A DNA stretch of 64,000 bases from Dictyostelium discoideum. Its lineage: Eukaryota. This document shows positions 19,902-35,610 of the stretch, piece after piece. A program made the translations under genes and the position numbers. The stretch is taken from NCBI GenBank assembly GCA_000004695.1, contig CM000152.2, positions 3,328,001 to 3,392,000 on the forward strand, given 5' to 3'. Under the pieces are notes generated by a model. The model worked only from the letters and a program-made list of their open reading frames with translations. It was not told the DNA's origin and did no database searches. The stretch's first letter is position 1. Each line of letters begins with the position of its first letter.

Positions 19902-22900
19902 TTATTTTACAAAAACTTGATGAATTTCTTTAAATGTTTGAGGGTTTGTAAATAATTGAATTGATAAAGTTTTTGAATTTAAAGCTTCTTGAATATCTTT
20001 ATCCAACATTAAGGAATTTGTATTGTTATTATTATTATTGATATTATTAATATTTAAATTTGGAATTGTAATATTTGCAATTTTTAAAGGTATTGATTCT
20101 TTTAACATTCTGGATTGATTTGCATCAGCATAATTATTTAAACCAAATTGACAAGTTGAACTTGAGATGAAATTTGTCATCTTTGATTGAAGTTGTTTAA
20201 CTTTTCTTTCTTGTTGTTTAATTAATAATTTTTGTTTTTCAATTTCATTTGCACTAGTTCTATCATTTGAGGAAGATGATGATGATGAGGAGGATGAAAT
20301 TGATTTATTACTTAAATCTAAAACCTTTGGAGTTGCAGTACTTTCTAAAATTGAACTCATCATATGATTAACTTGTTTTGAATATTCAACAATTTCATTA
20401 AATTTAATTTGTTGTTTCTTTGCTTGTTGTTCTAATAAAGTTGGAGTAGATGATGAAGTTGAAGATGTTGATGAATTATTTGATTGTTGTTGTTGTTGTT
20501 GTTTTATTTGTTGTTGATGTCTATAATTTTGAATTAAATTTAATTCACATAATTCTTTAATAGATTTTTGAGATTTTAATTTCAAATTTTCATTTCTTAA
20601 GAATCTAATAGCTTTTTTAAGGGATAATACATTGATATCATCAACAGAACGAAGTAACTCTTGATTGGCAATCATTGGAGATAATGGAGTATTTAATTTC
20701 TTTTGTAATTCTTGTTGAAGAGCAAGTATTTTATTTTGCATATTCTTTGAATCATGCTCTAGTGAGTTCTTTTCATTACGTAATAGATTGAGGGCTTGAC
20801 GGAAATTCTTTTCATTATCTTCACGTGATTTAATTTCTTTTGCCAATTTTTCAGTGACTTCATTCTCTGATTTTTGAAGTATACGAATTCTTTTATCAAA
20901 TGATTCCTCTTTACGCTTCTCTTCGATTAATTCAGCTTCTTTTGCTTTGATAGTTTTAAGATTCTCTAATAGTTCAGCATCTTTTGATTGAATGATATCA
21001 CGTAATTGACCCACTTCACCAAGGGATTGTTTTAATTGATTAGCTCTTTCAGCCCATGGACTTTGTTTGGTTAATGCTTGTTTATCCTTTTCAGAGAGAT
21101 TCAAATCACCAGCGATAATAGTTTCAACTACATCACTCAATTGTACATTCATACGATAGAATACTTTCTCCAATGAAGATGAAAGTTTAGATTCCTCTTG
21201 ATCTTGATAATCATCATTTGAGAATTCATCATTATTCTTATTTAAAGAATTTGAATTACTAATGATAAGATCTGATCTTGCTTGAATCTTTATTAATAAA
21301 TCATTTAAATTATTATTTAAATTACCACTACCACTACCACTACCACCACCACCACTATTAATTGATTCATCTTGAATTTTTGGTAAAGATTGTACCAACT
21401 CTAAAAGTATTGATTTACAAGTATGTTCAGAGGTTTTAAGTAAATCACGTACAATTGATGATTGTGAAAGGTATGGTTTAGTTAAAAGATTCTTTACAAC
21501 TTTACGACAAACTGATAAAACTTTTGACATTTCTTTATGTGGGAAAATAAATTGGTCATTATGAGTTATTGTAGTTGTAATATTAATATCATTTAACATA
21601 ATTTGTTTAATATTATATTGAATACCTAAAATATAATTTAAAAGTATTGACCATTCTGGTTTAAATATTTGATCAACATTATTATTATTATTATTATTAC
21701 TGGATGTATTATTTGAACCACTGTCATTTGTTGAATTTGTAATATTACCAAAAATATTTGTTAAAATTGAATCAATACGTTGACAAAGTTTTTCTAAATC
21801 AGTACTTGAATAAGATGAACCAAATTGTTCCAATTTAATTAATTGTAATAAATTATCTAAAATTCTTTCTTGATTTAACATATCCTTAATTGATCTACCA
21901 GATCTTAACCATTGATCAGAAGATGATCTTTCTAAAGTTTCAGTTAACCAAGTTGTAGAGATTGCTAAATGCTCTAAAATATGAATGATAGATAGGGAAT
22001 GAGCAACTTGACCACTTGTTAACAACATTTGATCACTATCTCCACCAGCAACTTTATTACCAATCTCTTCAACTTTATAAGTACGATTTAAATATTTTTG
22101 AGCTAATTCCGATTTCAATATGATTCTCTTTAAGAGTAATAACATTTTAATAGCATCATTATCCAATTGGAAGGTTTGTTCTGGTAAATATTCATAAACA
22201 AATGCTAAATGAACTTGAGATTCAACAGATTTAGATTGTTCCAATTGGTGATCGATTTCCAATGCGGTTGCTTTAATCATTTGATTTTGTAATTGAATGT
22301 TTTTACTTAACAATTGTTGTTGAATTGCTGACCATGAATGTTGATGTTCCGATTGTTCCTCTTCTTTTCTTCTCATCTCTTCCAATTTATGTTGAAGTCT
22401 ACCAACGAGATCACGGAATTGTAATATGGTTTTTTCATTCTCTTGGTTTTTAATTTGAAGATTGGTCATTTGGCTTTGAATATTCAAAATTTCAATATCC
22501 TTTGAATTGACCTCCAATCTTAATGATTTCTCCAGTGCAACTTGATTTTCACTCAACTCTTCACTAAGATCTCTAAATGATTCTAAATCTGCAATTGATA
22601 CTTTTAATTCCTCCAATTCTTCATTCAATGAAAGATTCTTATCTGTAAGATCGGTGATTAACGATTCACTGACTTCGGCATCCTCCAATGCTAACTTCAA
22701 TTCCAAGGTCTCTTCTATCTTTATTGATAACTCCATCTCCAATTTATTTGATTTCTCTGTTAGTGATTGAACTTGTTTTGAGAGAGTTTCCAATTCTTTG
22801 GTTTTCTTTGAGAGTTCATGTTTATCATTCATTGTGATATCACGTAGTTTAACCAATGCCTCTTTTAATTTATCGTTTTGTTCTTGTAATACCAATACAT

Positions 22901-24629
22901 CGGTTGGTAAACTTTCATCGATTGAACGAGTTGGTTTCTCATCCAATTGGATTTTCAAACTATCGTATTCGATACGCATCATCTCTAATTCCTCTTTGAC
23001 TTGTTCAAATTCCAATTCGGTCATTTCTAATTTCTCTTCGGTAACTTCTTTATCGAGTGTTAAAAGTTCGAGATTTTCATTGAGATTTGAAATTTGCTCC
23101 AATAGGGATTGTTTCTCCTTTTCAAACTCTGATTTCTCTTTATCCTCATTACGATGTTGAGTTTTCAAAAGATTTTCATTTTCTTTCTCTTTGATCGCTA
23201 TGGTTTTCTCTAATTGTTGAATTTGTTTTTCATTTTCTTTGATTTGTTTTTCATTCTCTTTGATTTGTTTATCCTTACTGGCTACTGCTTCCTTTAATCT
23301 ATCCTTTAAACTATTGATCTCCTCTTGTGATCTGTTTTTATCCTCTTTTAAGTCATTGATAGTTGTCATCATCTTATCAATATTCTCTTGAACTGCTTGA
23401 TTCATTCTTTCAGTTGCTAATGATTTATTTAATAAATCATTAATTTCTTCTTCTTCTTCTTCATCTTCACCTTGAATAATTTTTGATTGTTTCTTTTGTG
23501 TTGATGGTGGTGTTAATGTTATAGAATTTGATGTTGATGGTGGTAATGGTGTTGATGGTGTTGGTATTGGAGTTGTTGTTGTAGTTATAGTTGGATTTGG
23601 TGTTATTATTGGTGTTGGTGTTGGTGTTGGTGTTGGTGTTGGTGTTGGTGTTGGTGTTGGTGTTGGTGTTGGTGTTGGTGTTGGTGTTGGTGTTGGAGTT
23701 GGAGTTGGTTCTTTTAAACCTGATGGTTTTGGAATACCAGTTGGTCTTGAAGAAGCTGATGATGGTGGTCTTGAAATTTTAGATGGTGTTGGTTGTGGTT
23801 GTTCTATTGGTGTTGGTTCAACTACAGTTGGTGGTGGTGGTGAAATTGTAGTTGTAGTTGGTGGTGAGGGTTCAGATTTCTTTTCTGGTGGTGGTGATGT
23901 AAGTGGTGAGGTAGAAGTTGGTGAAGTTGAAGTAGTACTAGTTGTAGTTGTAGTTGATGATGGAATAGTGCTTGGTCTTCTAATACCAGATTCACTTGGT
24001 TTTTTAATTGATGAAGTTGGTGTTGTTGTTGTTGTTGTTGTTGATGATGATGATGATGATGATGAGGTTGTTGAAGAAGAACCAGTTAGTGATGGCCTAC
24101 CTTTACCCAATGATGATGGTGGTCTAATACCAGTTGATGATGGTGGTCTAATACCAGATGTTGCAGCTATTTTTGATGGTGTAGTGATTGGTGCTGGCAT
24201 AAGTTTAGAATCATCAATACCATCATCAATATTTGATGTTTGTTGTGGTTGTGGTTGTGTTTGTGTTTGTGGTTGTTCTTCTACAATTACTGCCATATTT
24301 GGTTTAACGAATAAACCATGTGCTGGTTTACAATCAAAATATCTTTCACCTTGAACTGTACCATCATTTTTACCAGCTATTTTTTTAAAAAAAAAAAATT
24401 TATTTAATATATTTTAAATTAATAATTATAAATGGGAGGGGGTATGATTGTGTGATTATTTTATAATAATAAATAATAACATACCAGCACTATCTAATTC
24501 AATACCAACCCAACGACCAGGACTGAATTTTGTCATACCACAATATTTAACAGTACCTAAACCTAATTCAGGTTTACCATTGATAGAAACACGTGTTCCT
24601 GGTGGAAGTGATTTTCCTTCTTCTGACAT
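19902..24629 (-). CDS. Dynactin subunit 1 (p150Glued): CAP-Gly domain, long coiled coils, Thr/Pro/Ser-rich linker; model join(24629..24485,24376..19902), 1539 aa
   Basis: Exon 1 MSEEGKSLPPGTRVSINGKPELGLGTVKYCGMTKFSPGRWVGIELDSA, GTATGT donor at 24484, AAAAAATAG acceptor at 24377, exon 2 continues GKNDGTVQGERYFDCKPAHGLFVKPN (CAP-Gly GKNDG motif) and the rest of the 1464-aa track ORF; heptad-rich central region. Confidence 0.8.
23621..23694 (-). repeat. (GGTGTT)n hexanucleotide tandem repeat, about 12 units, in-frame inside the dynactin gene (encodes (TP)n on the coding strand)
   Basis: seen directly; protein shows PTPTPTPT... run. Confidence 0.9.
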
Positions 24630-25123
24630 TGTGTCTCTTGTAATGTTATTGTATTTCTTTTTTTTTTTTTTTTTTTTTTTTCTTATTTTTTTTTTTTTTC
24701 CTAAAAAATTTTATTTTATTTTATTTTAATATTTGCTTGTTTATTATTTCGATGTGTTGAATGTTATTTTTATTATTTATTATTATATTTTATGTAATAA
24801 AAAAAACAACCGATAATAATATGCATACAACACACCCATATGCTATTTTCAAATTAATTTAAAAAAAAAAAAAAAAAAAATCACAAGTTCAAAAAAAAAA
24901 AAAATAAAAAAAAAAAAATAAAAAAAAAAAAATAAAAAAAATAAAAAAAAAATTAAAAAAAAAAAAAAAAGAAAATGAGTGGACAAAATAATATGACAAT
25001 TGTCTCACCAAACAGTTAAATATTCTAACAGGATTTAATCCCCCCAATAATTTAAATAATTTAAAATAAAATAAATGAAACAATAATTATTTACAATTTT
25101 TTTTTTTTTTTTTATTATTATTT

Positions 25124-25929
25124 TTAACTATTTGTTCCACCATGTATACATGAAAAACTAGTAAAAATTTTTTGTTTAAAACTTTTTTTAGGTCCACATG
25201 CTTTTGAATTATTAATTTCTGATTTTTTCTTATCATTTCCACCTTTATTATTATTATTTTCATTATAGTCATCTTTATTATTATTATTATTATTTAAATC
25301 AAATTTTACTTTATTTTTTCTACCAATACTATTAAAACTATTTGTTCTATTTGAGTTATTATTATTATTATTGTTGTTGTTGTTGTTATTATTATTATTA
25401 TTTAAATTTTTTAATTTCTTTTTTTCTCTTTCAAGTTGTTTTTCTTTTTCAAATTGTTCAAAACGTTGAATTTCTCTAACTAATTGAAAAAATGAAGATT
25501 CAACATTTAATGTTGTTTTAGCAGAAGTTTCAAAGAATGGACAACCATAGAATTTTGAAAGATCATTACCTTCAGTTAATGAAACTTTTCTTTGACCTTC
25601 TGAATCTAAATCACATTTATTACCAATTAATACCATTGGAAATGATTCAACATCTTTAACCATTTTAATTTGATCAACTAACTCACTTGTTTTTTCAAAA
25701 CTAACTCTATCACTTATATCATAAACTATTAAAAATCCATCAGAGTTTTTTAAATATTGATCACGTATTGCAGTATAATCTTCATTTCCAGCTGAATCTA
25801 ATATATTCAATGAATAATTATCATTATCAATTCTACAATTCTTTGTATAAGAATCTTCAATTGTTGGATCATATTCATGAATAAAATATTGTTGATGAAA
25901 TTGAACTGTTAATGCTGTTTTTCTATATA

Positions 25930-25963
<34 letters not shown>

Positions 25964-26151
25964 ATAAAAAAAAAAAAAAATAATAAAAAAAAATAAATAA
26001 TAATTAGTTTGAGTAATTTATAAAAAAAATTAATTATTTAATTTATAAATTACCCAACAGCACCACTACCAAGAACAACCATATCAATTTTTATTATTTG
26101 ATTATTTGTATTTGCAAAATTACTTAATTTATTTTTTGTGAATGAACTCAT
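25124..26151 (-). CDS. Ras-family small GTPase with Asn-rich C-terminal extension; model join(26151..26054,25922..25124)
   Basis: Exon 1 MSSFTKNKLSNFANTNNQIIKIDMVVLGSGAV ends in phase 2 at GTAATT donor (26053); exon 2 after ATATATAG completes the P-loop GSGAVGKTALT, then switch I YDPTIEDSY, DSAGNEDY, NKCDL, ETSAK; matches Ras/Rap core over about 165 aa. Confidence 0.75.
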
Positions 26152-27001
26152 TTTTATTTCTATCTGTTTTAAAATTTATGAAAATTAATTTATATTTTTT
26201 TTTTTTTTGGTTTTGTTTTGTATTTTGAACAAAAGTATTCAATTAAATTAAAATAAAAATAACAACAATAATAAAAACAAAATAAACAAAAAATAAAATA
26301 ATTAAATAAATAATAATATTAATAAATTAAAAAAAAAAATAAAAAAAAAAAAAAAAAAAAACTAACAATATAAATAAAGATAAAATAATTTTTTTCAGAT
26401 TATAACAGTGAGATTGAGTTGTGGGTTGTGTGTTTGTGTTTGGGGTTATGTAATTATTTGAAAAAAAAAACACATATTTGAGCACACAGATATTAATCAA
26501 CCTTTTTTTTTTTCTCTTCACCACACCTTTTTGATTTTTATTATTGAATTTTTTTTTCATTTAATTTACATATTCCAAAATAAAAGTAATAATAATAATA
26601 ATAATTATAAAAATAAAAATAATAATAAAAAAATGAGATTTTTTTATTTGAATATTCAATAAAAATAATCTTTTGGTAATAATATTTTTTTTTAACTGAA
26701 TTTTCCATTTTTGAATTTGATTAAATATTATATATTTAAATCACTATCATCAAATTCAAACTTTTTTTTTTAAAATTAATCAATTTAATAATATATTAAT
26801 TTATTATTTTGATATTTGACATTTGATATTTTGATATTTTATATTTTATATTTTATATTATTACTCTTTATTGCAAAAAAAAAAAAAAAATAAAAAAATA
26901 AAAAGTATCCTTTGCAAATGTAATTATTAAAAAAATAAATTATACTATACCTTTTTTTTTTAAATCCAATAAATAAAAAATACATAATTTGTTGTGTGTA
27001 C

Positions 27002-27040
<39 letters not shown>

Positions 27041-27161
27041 TTTTTTTTAAGGAGAAATTTTATTATATACATATACTTTTATTTATTTATTTTTTTATTT
27101 ATTTATTTGTTTTCTTTTTTTTTGTATATTTTTTTATTACAATAAAATTGAATAAAAGTGA

Positions 27162-27449
27162 TTAAAAATAAGTAATTTCATCATCTTTTGCTTTACCATC
27201 TTGAACTGAAACTAAAGAAGCAGCACCAGAAAATGGTTTATAAATTCTAAGATGAGCATAACCATTTTCAGTTCTTACTTTAACAAAATAATTTGTACCA
27301 TTTACAAGTTGAGTTTTGTAGCTAATAACCTTTAGATTAGAAATATTGGTTCCAAGTTTACTTTGAATTGAAGGTTTAACAGCATTTACAATATCTTCAA
27401 CTGTTTTATCAGCTTGATGAGTAGCACCTAATCCTCCAACTTTTGTCAT
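27162..27449 (-). CDS. Cystatin A / stefin-type cysteine protease inhibitor (95 aa, single exon)
   Basis: N-terminal MTKVGGLGATHQAD (conserved Gly), QLVNGTNYFVKV (QxVxG motif), stefin length, no signal peptide. Confidence 0.8.
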   Translation of the reverse strand: MTKVGGLGATHQADKTVEDIVNAVKPSIQSKLGTNISNLKVISYKTQLVNGTNYFVKVRTENGYAHLRIYKPFSGAASLVSVQDGKAKDDEITYF

Positions 27450-28049
27450 TTTTTTTTGTTGCTTTTTTTGTTTATTTTTTTTAAAAAAAAAGAAATTATT
27501 TATATGTTAAAAATTGAATTAAATATTTTTTTATTAACAAAAAAAAAAAGAAATTAATAAAAAAAAAAAAAAAAAAATTAAAAAATTTAAAAATTTAAAA
27601 ATTAAAAAAAAAAAAAAAAAATAAAAAAAAAAAAATAAAATAAAATAAAATAAAATAAAAATTAATAATTGTTTTGAAACAACAAAAATTAAAAATAGAA
27701 TTTTTTTTTATTGGTACACACAACCCTAGTGTGTTTTAGTTTTCAAATTTTTAAAAAATTTTTTTTTTTTTTTTTTTTTTTTATGTCCCAAAAATTCAAT
27801 TTTAATAAATATCTTTTTTTTTGACCTTTTCTCTTCATTTTTTTTACCAGGGTCTATTCACCAAAATCTTTTTTTTAGTTTTATCATTTTTTCATTTTTT
27901 TTTTTTTTTTTTTTATTATAAATATTCAAAATGTAAGTTTTTTATTTTATTTTAAAAATAAATAACATTCACACACACACACACACACACTCACACACAC
28001 ATACATATCAAATAATCATATATCTCTCTATACATATATTCATATAACA

Positions 28050-28886
28050 ATGCCACACATTAGTGTTGCATCATCAGTTTTTCTTTTCACAATAATTTTT
28101 ATTTATTCAATTTCATTAATTTTTACAATACTAATACCTAATACTACTGCATCATATACAAAATTAAAATTATCAAATAGTTTATACGAAAATGATGAAG
28201 ATACAAAATATAGTTATTTTGCACAATTTTATAAAAATCAAATTAAAATTACAAAAGATGGTATAATACCAAAATATAATGAAGGTGTAGAATATATAAT
28301 AGATACATGTACATATGAAGAAATTGAAATTAGTGAATTTAAAAATTGTGGAAATTTAACAGGAATTAATAATACACAATTAATAATCAACAATATTAAT
28401 AAAATTAATAAAATTTCAAATTTAATTTATATTTTAACAGCAAGTTTAATTTTAATAAATATTTTAATATCTTTATCAGTTTATAAATTAATATTACCCT
28501 CAACTTCAAAACAAATAAATATAAATCAATTAAAATTTAGTTACCAAAAAAGGATATTTCTATTCAAATATTTTAGATTATCATTCTTACCATTACTAAT
28601 ACCAGCTGGTATTCTAATAAATTATTATACACAATTTGATAATTATTTTACAAATATTCCATTAAATGATGCAACAATATCTGATGGTAATTCATTTGGT
28701 TTTGCTGTAGTATCAATTGTTTTCAATTGTATGGGAGTTGTTTCAATTATAGGTTCAACTATTTTTTATTTAACTGAAATTTTAAATTCATCATCATCAT
28801 CATCATCGTCAAATATCCCATATGTAACTCCAAATGGTGGTGGTGAAAATATACCACTTAAAAATAATAATAATAATAAAGTATAA
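28050..28886 (+). CDS. Hypothetical multi-pass membrane protein (278 aa), single exon
   Basis: Track ORF with N-terminal hydrophobic segment and 2-3 further hydrophobic helices, poly-Ser/Asn tail; (CA)n-rich tract just upstream; no family recognised. Confidence 0.5.
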   Translation: MPHISVASSVFLFTIIFIYSISLIFTILIPNTTASYTKLKLSNSLYENDEDTKYSYFAQFYKNQIKITKDGIIPKYNEGVEYIIDTCTYEEIEISEFKNCGNLTGINNTQLIINNINKINKISNLIYILTASLILINILISLSVYKLILPSTSKQININQLKFSYQKRIFLFKYFRLSFLPLLIPAGILINYYTQFDNYFTNIPLNDATISDGNSFGFAVVSIVFNCMGVVSIIGSTIFYLTEILNSSSSSSSSNIPYVTPNGGGENIPLKNNNNNKV

Positions 28887-31341: not shown

Positions 31342-31344
<3 letters not shown>

Positions 31345-34300
31345 AGTAATAATGAAAACGTAATTTTTTCGGGTGATGGAAAAGGTTTATCATTTCGTAA
31401 ATTCAAACACTTACTCTTATTAATTCATGGCGAGGAAATATCGAAAGCTGATATTATTAGAAAACTAAGAAACAATGCATTGGAATATGCCGCAACATTG
31501 GATACAGACTTAACAGCAATGGAGATAATTGAAGATCTTAAAGATGCTTTTGATATTGGTGATAGTGATGATTTATCAGATTTAACAAAGTTGGGAGAAT
31601 ATAAATACAATACATTAGATATATTAGTTGGTAAATTTCTTTCAAAATGTTCAGCAGTTGATATTTCAGAAAAGTTTAAAATACAATTGTTTTATTCAGC
31701 TGTTGGTATTGAATTGGGTATTGAAATTACAAAATGTGCACCAAAATCATTAAAAAGAGCAATAGACATTGCAAAGTCTTGTGAAGATGGTTCAATTCGT
31801 ATGAGAGGTAGATCAATGTATACTGGTCAATTGGTTGCAAAAACATTACAAGAATTTGGAACTCAAAAGTATCTTGGTTCTGGATCTGGTTATACAACAT
31901 CACCACAGTACGTTACATCTCAAACTGAACAATCTACTGAAACTGAAGTATTAGCAACTCCAATTTATAAAAATCAAACATATTCACCACCACCATCACC
32001 TTATAAAGCACCACAAAATCAAGTAAATTCAATCACAAAATTTTGTAAATATTGCAAAAAGAAAGGTCATGTAATTCAAGAGTGTTGGTCTAAAGATAAA
32101 AAGAATAATTATAATGAGAATAAACAATCATATAATAATCATAGCACTAATGCAATTACAATGGTTAATGATAAAACGATTAATTCTATTGGAACTGATA
32201 GTATGAATGCAGCATTATTAATAAATGATAAGAATGTTAGAAGGTTAGTTGATACTGGTTCTTCTCTTACCATCATTTGGGAAAGTATTGCTAAAAAATT
32301 AAATTTAAAAGTTGAAGGTAAATCATTTTCAGTTAATTCAGCATCAAATAATGAAATTAAGATAGTTGGTAGTTGTGATACCATAATTAAATTAGGTAAA
32401 GCATCCGCAAAAGGTAATGTTAATATTGTTAAAGATAATGATACTTCAATCGATTGCATTTTTGGTGTAGATACACTTATTGGATTGAAATTAATAATTG
32501 ATTGCAAGGAAATGATCATTAAGAATCTTGAATTTAATGTTGGTACAAGATTAATCACCAGAGAAACCAAACCAATTGTTTGCAAAATTGATCTAAATAT
32601 ATTAGAAAAAGTATCAAAACCAATGGCTGAGTTATTAATCAAAAATGAAGAGATTTTTGAAACCAAATTGTCAAAACCAGGATCATTAATAGATGTTGAA
32701 CATTCAATTAAATTAACTGATGAAAATGTTTCTGTTTATACTCCACCATACAAAACTAGTCCAGCTGATAAAGAATTCATTGAAGAATACATTAAAGATG
32801 CATTAGATAAAGGTATAATCGAGAAATCAGATTCATCACAATACGGTTCTCCAATAGTCTTATCCAGAAAGAATGATAAAATTAGATTTTGTGTTAATTA
32901 TAAAAAACTAAATGACCTCACAATTAAAGATAGATATCCACTTCCATTAATTTCTGATTGTTGGTATTATCTCAAAGATGCAAAAGTTTTCTCAAAAATT
33001 GATCTTACTTCTGGTTATTATCAAATCAAAATGAAAGAAGAGGACAAGGATAAAACAACCTTTGTCTCTCATATGGGTCAATTTAGATATGTTGTAATGC
33101 CATTTGGATTATGTAATGCACCAGCAACTTTTCAAAGATACATGAATGAATTATTAAAAGATGAATTAAGAAAAAGTAATATTGGGTTTATTGACGATTG
33201 TATAATTTATAGCAAGAATAATGAATATCATATTGAACATGTCAAACTATTATTCGAAAAATTCAAAGAAAAAGGTGCAAAGTTACAAATAACTAAATGT
33301 GAGTTTGAAAAAGAAGAGATCAAGTTTTTGGGATATATCGTTTCAAAGAATGGTATTACTTATGATAGTTCAAAGTTTAATGAATTATTAAAAACACCAC
33401 CTCCATCAAATCAAAAAGAATTAATGAAATTACTCGGTACTGTCAATTACTTTAGAACATTCATTAAAAATTTCACTCATTTAACTTCATCATTTTATCC
33501 ACTATTAAAGAAGGGTGTTAATTTCAAATGGACTGATGAATTGGAAAATGATCGTGTAAAATTATTTACTACATTAGCACAAACTAATCTTTTAAGTTTT
33601 CCACAAGATACAGATGATAATGTTATTGAAACTGATGCTTCAATTATTGGTATTGGTGGTGTAATGATTCAAAATGGTAAACCAGTTTCTTATTATTCAA
33701 GAACATTAAACAACGCTGAAAAGAATTATTCTGTTACTGAAAGAGAATGTTTGGCAATCATTGAATCAATTAAATATTTTAAATCCTATATCAATGGTAG
33801 AAAAGTAAAAATCATCACTGATCATCAACCTTTGAAATATCTCTTAACTGGTAAATTTACTGATCGTATTACAAGATGGACTGTATTACTTCAAGAGTAT
33901 AATTACGAAATTATATATAGACCTGGTAAAGAAAACTTTTTAGCTGATGCATTATCAAGATGTCCAGATAGAGATCAACAGCCAATTGATTGTGATATTC
34001 CAGAAAAGATATTTACAATTACTCACTATCCAGTAGCTTCACCATCAACTACAATTTTACCAAGAGTCTTACCATCAAGATCAAATCAAACATCTAATGT
34101 TTCACCAGCTACAACAATTCAACCACCAAATTCATCAAGTTCAAATCAATCATCAAATATCCCACCAACAACAAACCAATCATCAAATATTACAAATCAA
34201 CCAATAAATACTTCATCAATGAATTTAAATCAATCATTATCAAATCCACCATCTCTTATTACAAATCAAGCAACAACCGCTAGATTATTGAATAGTGTAC

Positions 34301-35610
34301 CTATCTCAATCAACAATGATAATATTAATACAACAATTCCACAATTTACACAAGAGTCAATAAGAAAAGAGTTGGAAAAAGAAAATTATTATAGAGCAAT
34401 GTATAAATATCTTGAAGAAACAAGACTTCCAGACAATGCACAAGCAGCAAGAAGAATTTTGTTGGAGTCTGAATTTTATTCAATGATTAATGGATTTCTT
34501 TGTCACGGTTTAAAACATACTTTATCAAGTAAGAAATCTCATTTTAAACATCTTCAAATTGTAGTTCCAAAAACTATGACTAAATGGATAATGGAAATAT
34601 TTCATGATTCGCCACTTACTGGAGGACATTTTGGATTATTAAAAACTGTTGCAAAAATCAAAGAAAGATTCTATTGGATTGGTATGATTAAGGATATAAA
34701 AGAATTTATCGATAAATGTACAACTTGTTTACAAATTAAAAGAAAGTATGGTCCAAAAGAAGGTTTACTCATTCCAATTGAGATTGAACCTGAACCATTT
34801 AATACAATTGGTATTGATTTTATTGGTCCAATTACAAAAGATAATGCTCAAGTTTATTTGTTGGTTGTTATGGATTATTTTACTAAATGGCCAGAAGTTT
34901 TCTTTACCCTTGATATGGAAGGGGAGACTGTAGCTCAATTATTGTTGTATGAAATCTATACTAGATATGGGGTTCCAAAGAAGTTGGTTTCTGATCGTGG
35001 TAAGAATTTTTTAAGTAATGTAGTCTCTGGTGTTAATAAATTATTCGGTGTTCACAAATTAACAACTACTGCTTATCACCCACAATGTGATGGTCAAACT
35101 GAAAATTTCAATAATACATTAATTAAGATGCTCAAAGCTTTTATTGGTAATGAATTGTATGGCAATTGGGGTGAATTATTAAGATGTGTTTTATACTCAT
35201 ACAGAATTACACCACATGTTTCAACTGGTTTTTCACCCTTTTTCTTAATTTTTAATCGTCAACCAACTTTACCATTAGATACAACTTTAAATGTAAATTT
35301 TTATTCAAATTCACTAAGATTAGATTTCGCTGATAATTATGCACAATCCGTAAATAATAATCTTAAACGTGCCTTTTGGTTTACAAAGAATAATCATAAT
35401 CGTCCAACAAATATTCAAACAGGTGATTTTGTTTATTTACATACACCATATTCACAAACTTCTATTGGTCCAAAGAAATTCTATAAACCTTGGAGAGGTC
35501 CTTTTAAAATTCAAGAAAAAGTTAGCGATGTTACATTCAAATTAGATATGGGTAATCTTAGAGATCATAAAGTAGTCAATATTGAAAGATTGAAAAAAAT
35601 TTTCAACTAA
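31342..35610 (+). CDS. Retrotransposon Gag-Pol polyprotein (1422 aa, uninterrupted): CCHC zinc knuckle, aspartic protease, reverse transcriptase, RNase H, integrase
   Basis: CKYCKKKGHVIQECWSK (CCHC); LVDTGSSLT (protease DTG); RT motifs KIDLTSGYYQIKM, VMPFGLCNAPATFQRYMN, FIDDCIIYSKN (YxDD variant); RNase H IETDASIIGIGGVMIQ, TDHQPLKYL; integrase HHCC HDSPLTGGHFG...CTTCLQIK, catalytic GIDFIGPI, VVMDYFTKWPEVF, VSDRGKNF, YHPQCDGQTENFN. Confidence 0.9.

What the first reader, a model, noticed from the sequence alone, without database searches (positions are those of the whole stretch)
25124..26151. Ras-family GTPase carrying Gln61 to Asn and Gly13 to Ala equivalents and no CaaX box
Aligned to Ras, the P-loop is GSGAVGKT (Ras GAGGVGKS) and the switch II DTAGQE is DSAGNE. 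The catalytic glutamine that positions the hydrolytic water is replaced by Asn, a change that strongly reduces intrinsic and GAP-stimulated GTP hydrolysis in Ras. The protein ends ...SCIHGGTNS with no C-terminal Cys-a-a-X. An Asn-rich roughly 50-residue insert follows the G5 SAK motif. This looks like a constitutively GTP-biased, non-prenylated Ras-like protein or pseudo-GTPase rather than a canonical Ras.
Basis: partly seen in the sequence, partly recalled or inferred. Interest (0 to 1): 0.5.

Follow-up and report, generated by a model that had tools for sequence, protein, structure and literature searches.

The report
Atypical Ras GTPase gene in Dictyostelium
This is a real, selectively maintained Dictyostelium discoideum Ras-type switch gene (DDB_G0280437) in which the glutamine needed to turn the switch off has become asparagine and the usual lipid-anchor signal is missing, so it probably stays "on" longer than normal Ras. 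It is an uncharacterised member of a known class of atypical GTPases rather than a new kind of protein.

Summary
Window 25124-26151 (minus strand) holds a two-exon gene with a 131-nt intron. It encodes a 298-aa Ras-subfamily GTPase with P-loop GSGAVGKT and switch II DSAGNE, ending ...FSCIHGGTNS.

The window is D. discoideum AX4 chromosome 3. The gene is the unnamed, unstudied DDB_G0280437, listed next to rasB in a published dictyostelid GTPase survey.

- **Asn61 is real.** The AAT codon is present in three independently sequenced genomes. The syntenic D. purpureum ortholog still has Gln (CAA).
- **The gene is maintained.** G-domain dN/dS is 0.13-0.19.
- **No hidden CaaX exon.** None lies before the next gene, and eight orthologs all lack CaaX. 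They share a polybasic-hydrophobic-Cys motif near the C-terminus.
- **Ala13 and Thr17 are uninformative.** Rac1 has the same P-loop residues.
- **Nucleotide binding looks intact.** All binding motifs and the Ras effector loop are present, so "pseudo-GTPase" in the strict sense is not supported.

Best reading: a lineage-specific, hydrolysis-impaired, non-prenylated Ras paralog. This matches a known class of atypical GTPases (RhoH/Rnd-like logic). Hydrolysis rate, GTP loading and membrane anchoring are inferred, not shown. Interest is modest.

The parts
25124..26151 (-). Complete coding span of the Ras-like gene DDB_G0280437 (298 aa, including the stop codon)
   Evidence: Spliced model. Pfam Ras E=1e-52. 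Gene identity from the neighbours and Forbes et al. Table S1.
26054..26151 (-). Exon 1 (98 nt): 22-residue N-terminal extension, strand beta1 and the first part of the P-loop
   Evidence: Exon length and intron position are identical in D. cf. discoideum and D. dimigraforme. The same intron position occurs in D. purpureum.
25923..26053 (-). Intron, 131 nt, GT..AG, 4% GC; it splits the Gly15 codon of the P-loop
25124..25922 (-). Exon 2 (799 nt including stop TAA at 25124-25126)
25916..26070 (-). P-loop GSGAVGKT (residues 28-35, spanning the intron). The Ala31 codon (Ras position 13) is GCT at 26059-26061.
   Evidence: Rac1 has GDGAVGKT.
25847..25873 (-). Switch I / effector loop YDPTIEDSY (residues 50-58), identical to Ras residues 32-40
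   Evidence: KRas alignment. Invariant columns.
25739..25798 (-). Switch II / helix alpha2 DSAGNEDYTAIRDQYLKNSD (residues 75-94). It carries lineage-specific changes T58S, Q61N, M67I and G75S.
25784..25786 (-). AAT codon for Asn79, at the position of the catalytic Gln61 of Ras
   Evidence: AAT in three genomes. The D. purpureum ortholog has CAA.
25610..25621 (-). G4 motif NKCD (residues 134-137)
25517..25525 (-). G5 motif SAK (residues 166-168)
25406..25462 (-). Charged helical extension of alpha5, FEQFEKEKQLEREKKKLKN (residues 187-205)
   Evidence: The AlphaFold2 model has a continuous helix over residues 173-211. Conserved in the three close orthologs.
25349..25408 (-). Poly-Asn tract (residues 205-224), variable in length between species
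   Evidence: Predicted disordered.
25295..25348 (-). Conserved island RTNSFNSIGRKNKVKFDL (residues 225-242) inside the otherwise fast-evolving tail; a candidate linear or phosphorylation motif
   Evidence: Nearly identical in three species while the tail as a whole has dN/dS 0.2-0.85.
25202..25294 (-). Second Asn/Lys-rich low-complexity stretch (residues 243-273)
25127..25192 (-). C-terminal motif PKKSFKQKIFTSFSCIHGGTNS (residues 277-298): a polybasic stretch, then hydrophobic residues, then Cys291 (TGT, 25148-25150), followed by 7 more residues. There is no CaaX.
   Evidence: The Cys and its polybasic/hydrophobic context are shared by 8 orthologs.
24630..25123 (-). 3' intergenic region up to the ATG of the dynactin p150 gene; it contains no possible CaaX-encoding mini-exon
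   Evidence: No C-x-x-x-stop in any of the three frames. The same holds for L002, L003 and L004.

Best explanation
DDB_G0280437 is a functional, lineage-modified Ras-subfamily GTPase from a dictyostelid orthogroup that resembles RasB and has no CaaX box.

**Shown**
- The G domain has a canonical Ras fold.
- All nucleotide- and Mg-binding motifs are intact, and the effector loop is identical to that of Ras.
- The gene is under purifying selection.
- After the split from D. purpureum, the D. discoideum / cf. discoideum / dimigraforme lineage fixed Gln61->Asn. This needed two nucleotide changes, CAA->AAT.
- The same lineage fixed a cluster of further changes on the switch II / alpha3 face that Ras uses for GAPs and GEFs: T58S, M67I, G75S and R102M. 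Switch I was left untouched.

**Inferred**
- The protein binds GTP normally, hydrolyses it slowly and is poorly switched off by arginine-finger RasGAPs.
- It therefore sits mostly in the GTP form and can still engage Ras-binding-domain effectors.
- Its output would then be set by expression level, by the conserved tail island (RTNSFNSIGRKN-VKFDL, possibly phosphorylated) and by localisation.
- Membrane attachment would come from the polybasic/hydrophobic C-terminus and S-acylation of the conserved near-terminal Cys291, not from prenylation. That cysteine looks like a remnant of an ancestral CaaX cysteine.
For: **Gene model and family**
- Gene model.
- Pfam Ras E=1e-52; KRas E~1e-52 with a residue-by-residue alignment.
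- The AlphaFold2 G domain has pLDDT >90. It superposes on Ras/KRas at TM ~0.95 (normalised to the target) and rmsd 1.2-1.4 A.

**Orthology**
- D. cf. discoideum (93% identity) and D. dimigraforme (72%) share the intron position, GSGAVGKT, DSAGNE and the tail motifs. Both lie next to the dynactin gene.
- The D. purpureum ortholog is syntenic and shares intron 1 but has GAGGIGKT/DTAGQD.
- Forbes et al. 2021 list DDB_G0280437 with Dpur, Dlac and Dfas orthologs. It carries no pseudogene flag, and developmental regulation is scored as conserved.

**Selection**
- dN/dS is 0.13-0.19 in the G domain.

**Rarity of Asn61**
- 2 of 226 homologs, both close orthologs.
- None among 146 further representatives.

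**Divergence at conserved sites**
- The protein departs from the consensus at 7 of 60 positions that are >=90% conserved, against a median of 1. These include G13A, T58S, M67I, G75S and R102M.
- Arg102 lies in the GEF footprint of Ras (PMC5538825).

**Effect of the substitution in Ras**
- HRas Q61N has about 1/8 of wild-type GTPase and is transforming (PMC6813200).
- All substitutions at Gln61 are gain-of-function when only a GAP is present (PMC5538825).

**Precedent**
- RhoH and Rnd lack Gly12 and Gln61 and are GTPase-deficient. Their output is controlled by expression and phosphorylation (PMC8305018; PMC13236570).

**No CaaX**
-. The conserved Cys is seen.
Against: - No biochemistry exists for this protein. 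The Q61N effect is extrapolated from HRas, where the intrinsic rate falls only about 8-fold.
- Gly12 is retained, unlike in RhoH and Rnd.
- Rap proteins also lack Gln61 yet cycle normally, because their GAPs supply a catalytic Asn (own knowledge). D. discoideum has 11 RapGAP-type genes (PMC8923023 Table 1), so this protein could still be switched off efficiently.
- S-acylation of Cys291 is a guess from sequence context only.
- I obtained no transcript-level evidence for the 3' end or for expression. The only support is a scored "conserved regulation" entry in a supplementary table.
- The deep relationship to RasB is not robust in my own NJ trees.
Confidence: 0.55

Rival explanations
1. It is still a normally cycling switch. 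Asn61 changes which GAP can act on it rather than abolishing inactivation. A GAP that supplies the catalytic residue in trans (an Asn-thumb RapGAP/TSC2-type or dual-specificity GAP) hydrolyses its GTP, so it is not constitutively GTP-bound.
For: - Rap-type proteins with Thr61 make up 41 of 226 retrieved homologs, so Ras-subfamily GTPases without Gln61 are common and functional.
- D. discoideum has 11 RapGAP-family genes (PMC8923023 Table 1).
- Gly12, Tyr32 and Thr35 are retained.
- The lineage-specific changes cluster on the regulator-facing switch II/alpha3 surface, as expected if the regulatory partners were swapped.
- Purifying selection acts on that surface.
Against: - No GAP partner is known.
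- Asn at position 61 is not the Rap solution (Thr61), and I found it in no other cluster.
- In HRas every position-61 substitution tested lowered hydrolysis.
Confidence: 0.25
2. It is a nucleotide-independent pseudo-GTPase or scaffold. The G domain no longer works as a switch, and the protein acts through its long tail.
For: - There are seven departures from otherwise >=90% conserved Ras positions.
- The tail is long (~110 residues) and carries conserved islands.
Against: - All G1-G5 motifs, the Mg-coordinating Thr35 and Thr17, Asp57/Gly60, NKxD and SAK are intact and invariant in the orthologs.
- G-domain dN/dS of 0.13-0.19 is lower than in the tail.
- The Ras-fold model is confident.
Confidence: 0.08
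3. It is a decaying or neutral duplicate of rasB with little function. Asn61 and loss of CaaX would then be steps toward pseudogenisation.
For: - The group-4 orthologs sit on a long branch.
- The tail is largely low-complexity, with dN/dS up to 0.85.
- No phenotype or study is reported.
Against: - The reading frame, intron and start are intact in four species.
- G-domain dN/dS is 0.13-0.19.
- Asn61 and the tail motifs are fixed across three species.
- The orthogroup is retained in dictyostelid groups 1, 3 and 4, and the survey does not flag it as a pseudogene.
Confidence: 0.05
4. It is an artefact of sequence or gene model. The Asn codon would be a sequencing error, or a small 3' exon would supply a CaaX box.
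For: - My exact 298-aa model was not found in the protein collection, so I could not compare it with the curated AX4 model.
Against: - AAT is present in three independent assemblies, and reaching a Gln codon needs two changes.
- No C-x-x-x-stop occurs in any frame before the next gene in AX4, L002, L003 or L004.
- The independent NCBI model for D. cf. discoideum is collinear with mine (298 aa, same intron).
- Eight orthologs end in the same non-CaaX motif.
Confidence: 0.03

Closest known systems
Dictyostelium RasB (DDB_G0292998; P0150) and classical H/K/N-Ras
   Same: - Ras fold; 54% identity to RasB over the G domain and about 50% to KRas.
- The effector loop YDPTIEDSY is identical, and G1-G5 are intact.
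- The non-group-4 orthologs are almost identical to RasB in the N-terminal half.
- It is listed next to the rasB clade in Forbes et al..
   Different: - Asn instead of Gln61; Ser58, Ala13, Thr17, Ile67, Ser75 and Met102.
- An 18-22 residue N-terminal extension and a ~110-residue tail.
- No CaaX, whereas RasB ends in CLIL.
- Not orthologous: rasB has its own orthologs in every species.
The DDB_G0280437 orthogroup in other dictyostelids (D. purpureum DICPUDRAFT_168758, Cavenderia DFA_01850, T. lacteum P0193, P. violaceum CYY_000884, EukProt P0008)
   Same: - No CaaX. The C-terminus follows a conserved pattern of S-phi-K-K-K-phi..phi-x-C-(G/I) plus 4-10 residues.
- D. purpureum shows dynactin synteny and the same first intron.
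   Different: - All of them keep Gln61 (DTAGQD), Thr58, Met67, Gly75 and Arg102.
- They are only 209-222 aa long, with no poly-Asn tail or RTNSFNSIGRK island.
RhoH and Rnd1-3 (atypical, GTPase-deficient Rho proteins)
   Same: - Natural loss of the catalytic Gln with nucleotide binding retained. RhoH has Asn at that position (own recollection of the sequence, not tool-verified).
- They are constitutively GTP-bound, GAP-insensitive, and controlled by expression, phosphorylation and turnover (PMC8305018; PMC13236570).
   Different: - They belong to the Rho family, not Ras.
- They also lack Gly12, which this protein keeps.
- They retain a CaaX box.
- There is no shared ancestry for the substitution.
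Rap1/RapA (Thr61) with Asn-thumb RapGAPs
   Same: - A Ras-subfamily GTPase without Gln61 that is nevertheless a regulated switch.
- Same effector-loop core.
   Different: - Rap has Thr61, Glu30/Lys31 and a CaaX box.
- This protein has Asn61 and a Ras-like Glu31.
- It is not RapC, which is 278 aa with Gly13/Ser18 numbering (PMC8370755).
Ras-family and Rho-family GTPases without CaaX (Rit/Rin, RGK, kappaB-Ras; S-acylated RhoU/RhoV, plant type-II ROPs). Named from my own knowledge; not tested here.
   Same: - Membrane or partner targeting works without prenylation, through polybasic stretches and/or S-acylated cysteines.
- Some of them (kappaB-Ras, RGK) also have non-canonical catalytic residues.
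   Different: - No specific sequence relationship: the nearest relatives here are classical Ras and RasB.
- The loss of CaaX is an independent event within Dictyostelia.

Membership tests
Ras superfamily small GTPase, Ras subfamily (Pfam PF00071) | G domain with G1 (GxxxxGK[ST]), switch I Thr, G3 (DxxG), G4 (NKxD) and G5 (SAK) | tested here: met
   PF00071 E=1e-52 over residues 24-185. Motifs found: GSGAVGKT, T53, DSAG, NKCD, SAK.
Ras superfamily small GTPase, Ras subfamily (Pfam PF00071) | Ras/Rap-type effector loop YDPTIEDSY (Ras residues 32-40) | tested here: met
   Identical nine residues at positions 50-58.
Ras superfamily small GTPase, Ras subfamily (Pfam PF00071) | Ras fold (six-stranded sheet, five helices) | tested here: met
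   The AlphaFold2 model has pLDDT >90 over the G domain. Foldseek versus PDB: Ras/KRas at target-normalised TM ~0.95 and rmsd 1.2-1.4 A.
Canonical Ras switch (H/K/N-Ras, RasB/G/D type) | Catalytic Gln61 | tested here: not met
   Asn79 (AAT) aligns with Gln61.
Canonical Ras switch (H/K/N-Ras, RasB/G/D type) | Gly12 | tested here: met
   Gly30 aligns with Gly12.
Canonical Ras switch (H/K/N-Ras, RasB/G/D type) | C-terminal CaaX prenylation box | tested here: not met
   The protein ends CIHGGTNS. No downstream CaaX mini-exon exists. 210 of 226 homologs do have CaaX.
Rap (RapA/B/C) | Thr61 and a Rap-type switch I flank (Glu30-Lys31); for RapC, 278 aa with Gly13/Ser18 numbering | tested here: not met
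   Asn61 and His-Glu at positions 30-31. The P-loop starts at residue 28, not 11. RapC details from PMC8370755. RapC is a different locus, DDB_G0270340.
DDB_G0280437 orthogroup (dictyostelid non-CaaX, RasB-like Ras) | Synteny or orthology with DPU/DLA/DFA members | tested here: met
   - Dynactin synteny and a shared intron with D. purpureum.
- Published orthogroup.
- NJ support is 75-93% for the group-4 clade; the deeper grouping is unstable.
DDB_G0280437 orthogroup (dictyostelid non-CaaX, RasB-like Ras) | Polybasic-hydrophobic-Cys C-terminus that is not at the CaaX position | tested here: met
   Present in 8 of 8 orthologs.
Atypical GTPase-deficient small GTPases (functional class: RhoH, Rnd and similar) | Substitution of the catalytic Gln and/or Gly12 with nucleotide binding retained | tested here: met
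   Gln61->Asn with intact binding motifs. Gly12 is retained, so only one of the two hallmark changes is present.
Atypical GTPase-deficient small GTPases (functional class: RhoH, Rnd and similar) | Measured lack of intrinsic and GAP-stimulated hydrolysis; predominantly GTP-bound in cells | not testable with these tools
   Only an extrapolation from HRas Q61N is available (1/8 of wild-type rate; PMC6813200).
Pseudo-GTPase (nucleotide-binding-deficient) | Loss of G1/G4/G5 residues needed to bind nucleotide | tested here: not met
   All are present and invariant across orthologs. G-domain dN/dS is 0.13-0.19.
S-acylated non-CaaX GTPases | Demonstrated palmitoylation of a C-terminal Cys | not testable with these tools
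   The only evidence is conservation of Cys291 next to polybasic and hydrophobic residues.

The most novel reading that the evidence does not exclude
In the D. discoideum species complex, a RasB-derived paralog has been converted by natural selection into a permanently GTP-loaded "oncogene-like" Ras (Q61N). It is anchored by S-acylation of a remnant of the old CaaX cysteine. It is controlled through a newly evolved phosphorylatable tail and transcription, not by GAPs. It would act as a tunable competitor or activator for Ras-binding-domain effectors such as PI3K or TORC2 during development. That would make it a natural experiment showing how a cell tolerates and uses a constitutively active Ras.
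Probability: 0.25. Interest if true: 0.5.

Novelty: new member of a known kind. Interest (0 to 1): 0.3.

Why it matters
Dictyostelium is a main model for Ras/Rap control of chemotaxis and macropinocytosis. Work there concentrates on RasB/C/D/G/S and RapA, while about 20 further Ras-like genes are unstudied.

If DDB_G0280437 is GTP-locked and keeps an intact effector loop, it could influence read-outs that use Ras-binding-domain reporters. It would also show how a cell tolerates a natural "Q61 mutant" Ras.

The Q->N change is recent and datable: it is absent in D. purpureum and fixed in three close species. It comes with a cluster of changes on the regulator-facing surface. Together these give a clean evolutionary pair for testing how GAP and GEF dependence is lost or rewired.

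The cysteine that all eight orthologs retrieved (from dictyostelid groups 1, 3 and 4) keep near, but not at, the CaaX position is a testable case of an anchoring signal being repurposed.

None of this changes current understanding of GTPases. It is a useful lead for specialists rather than a surprise.

Tried and rejected
1. **RapC.** Considered because of the long tail. Rejected: RapC is 278 aa with the P-loop at residue 11 and sits at a different locus.

2. **Look-up of the curated AX4 protein.** Neither the 298-aa model nor a Met24-start variant is in the collection. The curated AX4 model and any transcript contigs could therefore not be compared.
   - No D. discoideum copy of this protein appeared in either homology search, although RasB of D. 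discoideum did. I treat this as a property of the database, not biology.

3. **The only contig found for the neighbouring cystatin gene (L001).** It is collinear with the window for just 449 nt and says nothing about the Ras gene.

4. **Literature search for DDB_G0280437 and neighbouring gene IDs.** Zero papers in main text. The gene is mentioned only in a supplementary table.

5. **Phylogeny.**
   - BLOSUM-distance NJ recovers the eight-member orthogroup, but the support values in that run are unreliable because of rooting.
   - Kimura-distance NJ with split-based bootstraps pulls the long group-4 branch toward Rap (67%) and gives only 16% for the full orthogroup.
   - I regard the deep placement as unresolved by my trees. 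I rely instead on synteny, the shared C-terminal motif and the published Bayesian grouping.

6. **G13A as evidence of GTPase loss.** Rejected after verifying the Rac1 P-loop.

7. **Hidden CaaX exon.** Rejected. One CIYI-stop string lies 66 nt downstream in the Cavenderia locus (L005). It sits in an Ile/Phe-rich AT-rich frame and looks like chance.

8. **A blastn comparison of flanks with L002.** It produced mostly low-complexity noise. Only the main 82%-identical, 2.6-kb collinear block is meaningful.
Full report
**1. What is in the sequence**

On the minus strand an ATG at 26151 opens a 98-nt exon. A GT..AG intron follows (26053-25923, 131 nt, 4% GC). A 799-nt exon then ends at TAA 25126-25124, and the spliced product is 298 aa. 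An in-frame stop lies 27 nt upstream of the ATG.

Pfam Ras (PF00071) matches residues 24-185 at E=1e-52. The best solved-structure relatives are KRas and HRas at E~1e-52. The printed alignment sets query residue n equal to Ras residue n-18. This gives:
- GSGAVGKT = G10, S11, G12, A13, V14, G15, K16, T17
- YDPTIEDSY = Ras 32-40, identical
- DSAGNE = D57, S58, A59, G60, N61, E62
- NKCD and SAK intact

An AlphaFold2 model built on 103 homologs has pLDDT >90 across the G domain. Helix alpha5 is prolonged to residue 211 and the tail is disordered. Foldseek places the model on Ras/KRas structures at target-normalised TM ~0.95 and rmsd 1.2-1.4 A. The protein ends FSCIHGGTNS.

The Asn-rich material lies in a ~110-residue C-terminal extension beyond alpha5. 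It is not an insert directly after SAK.

**2. Where it comes from and what it is called**

Exact look-ups of neighbouring ORFs identify D. discoideum AX4 chromosome 3:
- cystatin A2 (XP_641175)
- DDB_G0280441
- DDB_G0280523

Downstream on the same strand is the dynactin p150 gene, followed by RIO1.

In Supplementary Table S1 of Forbes et al. 2021 (PMC8923023), the first entry of the Ras_Rap block, next to the rasB clade, is the unnamed DDB_G0280437. Its listed orthologs are DPU_G0052626, DLA_06975 and DFA_01850, with none in P. pallidum. It carries no pseudogene flag. Domain architecture and developmental regulation are scored as conserved. DFA_01850 is my hit P0010, which ties the window gene to that entry.

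No paper in the searchable library mentions the gene ID in its main text. It is not RapC.

**3. Is Asn61 real, and how unusual is it?**

The codon is AAT in AX4, in D. cf. discoideum (93% identical protein) and in D. dimigraforme (72%). All three also share GSGAVGKT. Their gene models have the same 98-nt first exon and the same intron position. Both orthologs lie upstream of the dynactin gene.

The D. purpureum ortholog is also next to dynactin and shares the first intron position. It has GAGGIGKT and DTAGQD, with Gln encoded by CAA. Gln->Asn therefore arose after the D. purpureum split and needed two nucleotide changes.

Rarity:
- Among 226 Ras/Rap homologs from two searches, position 61 is Q in 182, T in 41 and N only in the two orthologs.
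- A phmmer scan of 1.84 billion representatives with the 54-residue switch-II segment found only the P0001 cluster at 100% identity. All other hits are <=55% identical. None of the 146 further hits has Asn (133 Q).

**4. Is the gene functional?**

Nei-Gojobori dN/dS values:

| Comparison | G domain | Tail |
|---|---|---|
| AX4 vs cf. discoideum | 0.13 | 0.21 |
| AX4 vs dimigraforme | 0.19 | 0.60 |
| cf. discoideum vs dimigraforme | 0.17 | 0.85 |

Two tail islands are almost invariant: RTNSFNSIGRKN(K/R)VKFDL and PKKS-K-KI--SFSCI. This is purifying selection on the G domain, not decay.

At 60 alignment columns that are >=90% conserved in other Ras/Rap proteins, the AX4 protein departs at 7, against a median of 1. 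In Ras numbering these are K5D, G13A, S17T, T58S, M67I, G75S and R102M. All but S17T are specific to the Asn61 trio.

Together with Q61N, four of these (T58S, M67I, G75S, R102M) lie on switch II/alpha2 and alpha3. Ras uses this face for GAP and GEF contacts, and Arg102 is in the GEF footprint (PMC5538825). Switch I is unchanged.

**5. What the substitutions mean**

- **Gln61.** It positions the attacking water. In saturation mutagenesis, all substitutions at positions 12, 13 and 61 are gain-of-function when only a GAP is present (PMC5538825). HRas Q61N specifically has about one-eighth of the wild-type GTPase rate and intermediate transforming activity (Der et al. 1986, as summarised in PMC6813200).
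- **Ala13 and Thr17.** These are the normal residues of Rac1 (GDGAVGKT, PDB 1i4d). Ala13 also occurs in Gln61-bearing orthologs (Cavenderia GGGAVGKS, P. violaceum GAGAVGKS). The "G13A" part of the finding therefore carries no weight.
- **Precedent.** RhoH and Rnd1-3 lack Gly12 and Gln61 and are GTPase-deficient. They are regulated by expression, phosphorylation and turnover (PMC8305018; PMC13236570).
- **Counter-precedent.** Rap (Thr61) cycles with GAPs that supply the catalytic residue. D. discoideum has 11 RapGAP-type genes.

**6. The C-terminus**

No C-x-x-x-stop exists in any frame in the 494 nt between the stop codon and the dynactin ATG. None exists in the corresponding intervals of the three group-4 orthologous loci.

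Eight orthologs all lack CaaX:

| Ortholog | C-terminal residues |
|---|---|
| AX4 | ...KIFTSFSCIHGGTNS |
| D. cf. discoideum | ...FSCIHGGNK |
| D. dimigraforme | ...FSCISRSNN |
| D. purpureum | ...KKKLFYSIFCGSNPTD |
| EukProt P0008 | ...KKKFKFSCFGGSEVM |
| Cavenderia | ...KKRFTSLIICGSSS |
| P. violaceum | ...KIFNRLICGAKECSNDRY |
| T. lacteum | ...KKKLYTKFICIREEELNEN |

They share a polybasic run, then hydrophobic residues, then a Cys followed by 4-10 residues. RasB orthologs end in C-[TLI]-I-L.

The pattern looks like an ancestral CaaX cysteine that was kept after the box was extended. S-acylation plus electrostatic binding is the natural hypothesis, but it is only an inference.

**7. Phylogeny**

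- The Asn61 trio is supported at 100%.
- The trio plus D. purpureum is supported at 75-93%.
- The full orthogroup and its sister relation to RasB appear in a BLOSUM-distance NJ tree. They are unstable with Kimura distances because of long-branch attraction to Rap.
- Identity is 54% to D. discoideum RasB and 57% to the D. purpureum ortholog.

**8. Verdict**

- A hydrolysis-impaired, non-prenylated Ras paralog is the best reading (confidence about 0.55).
- A rewired but still cycling switch is the main rival (about 0.25).
- The strict pseudo-GTPase, decaying-duplicate and artefact readings are disfavoured.

The gene is catalogued but uncharacterised. Its features place it in the known class of atypical GTPases. 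Interest is modest (0.3).

Noticed in passing
window 31342-35607 (+): A 1422-aa uninterrupted ORF with aspartyl protease, reverse transcriptase, RNase H and integrase domains. It looks like an intact Ty3/gypsy-type LTR retrotransposon pol gene, about 5 kb from the Ras gene.
   Followed up: no
window 19902-24629 (-): Dynactin p150 gene directly downstream of the Ras gene. The CAP-Gly domain is in a short first exon (24456-24629). The main exon has a long Thr-Pro (TPTPTP...) and Ser/Thr-rich low-complexity region with a strong GC-skew signature. The Ras-dynactin adjacency is conserved in D. cf. discoideum, D. dimigraforme and D. purpureum.
   Followed up: partly
window 26152-28050 versus L002 1-6000: Between the Ras gene and the DDB_G0280441 homolog, AX4 has cystatin A2 (27165-27449). 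D. cf. discoideum instead has called genes for a terpene synthase (355 aa) and a 251-aa protein. This may be a local gene-content difference between very close species.
   Followed up: no
L001 (Logan SRR24091726 contig 610): The only contig on record for cystatin A2 matches the window for just 449 nt (27078-27525). It then continues into an unrelated 555-aa ORF. It is probably a chimeric or construct-derived contig.
   Followed up: partly
window 25295-25348 (-), residues 225-242: The island RTNSFNSIGRKNKVKFDL is nearly invariant in three species, although it is embedded in poly-Asn sequence that changes length freely. It contains R/K-x-x-S contexts that could be basophilic-kinase sites.
   Followed up: partly
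window 25184-25198 (-), residue Cys275: A second tail cysteine, (A/E)-C-(G/N), is conserved in the three Asn61 species. The multiple alignment placed the CaaX cysteines of other Ras proteins on it.
   Followed up: no
L004 8001-8977 (D. purpureum ortholog): The D. purpureum gene model has four introns, including one that isolates a roughly 9-nt exon encoding K-T-A. The D. discoideum-lineage genes keep only the first intron, which suggests intron loss in that lineage, or else an imperfect D. purpureum model.
   Followed up: partly
protein collection: No D. discoideum copy of this protein is retrievable: not AX4, and not the three newer D. discoideum assemblies whose neighbouring genes are present. 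RasB of D. discoideum and the D. cf. discoideum ortholog are both present. The reason is unexplained. I assumed it is a property of the database.
   Followed up: partly
L005 about 8880 (Cavenderia fasciculata, 66 nt past the stop of DFA_01850): A short open frame reading ...SFFCIYI-stop has a CaaX-like ending. It lies in AT-rich sequence and is judged a chance occurrence, but it was not checked against transcripts.
   Followed up: no
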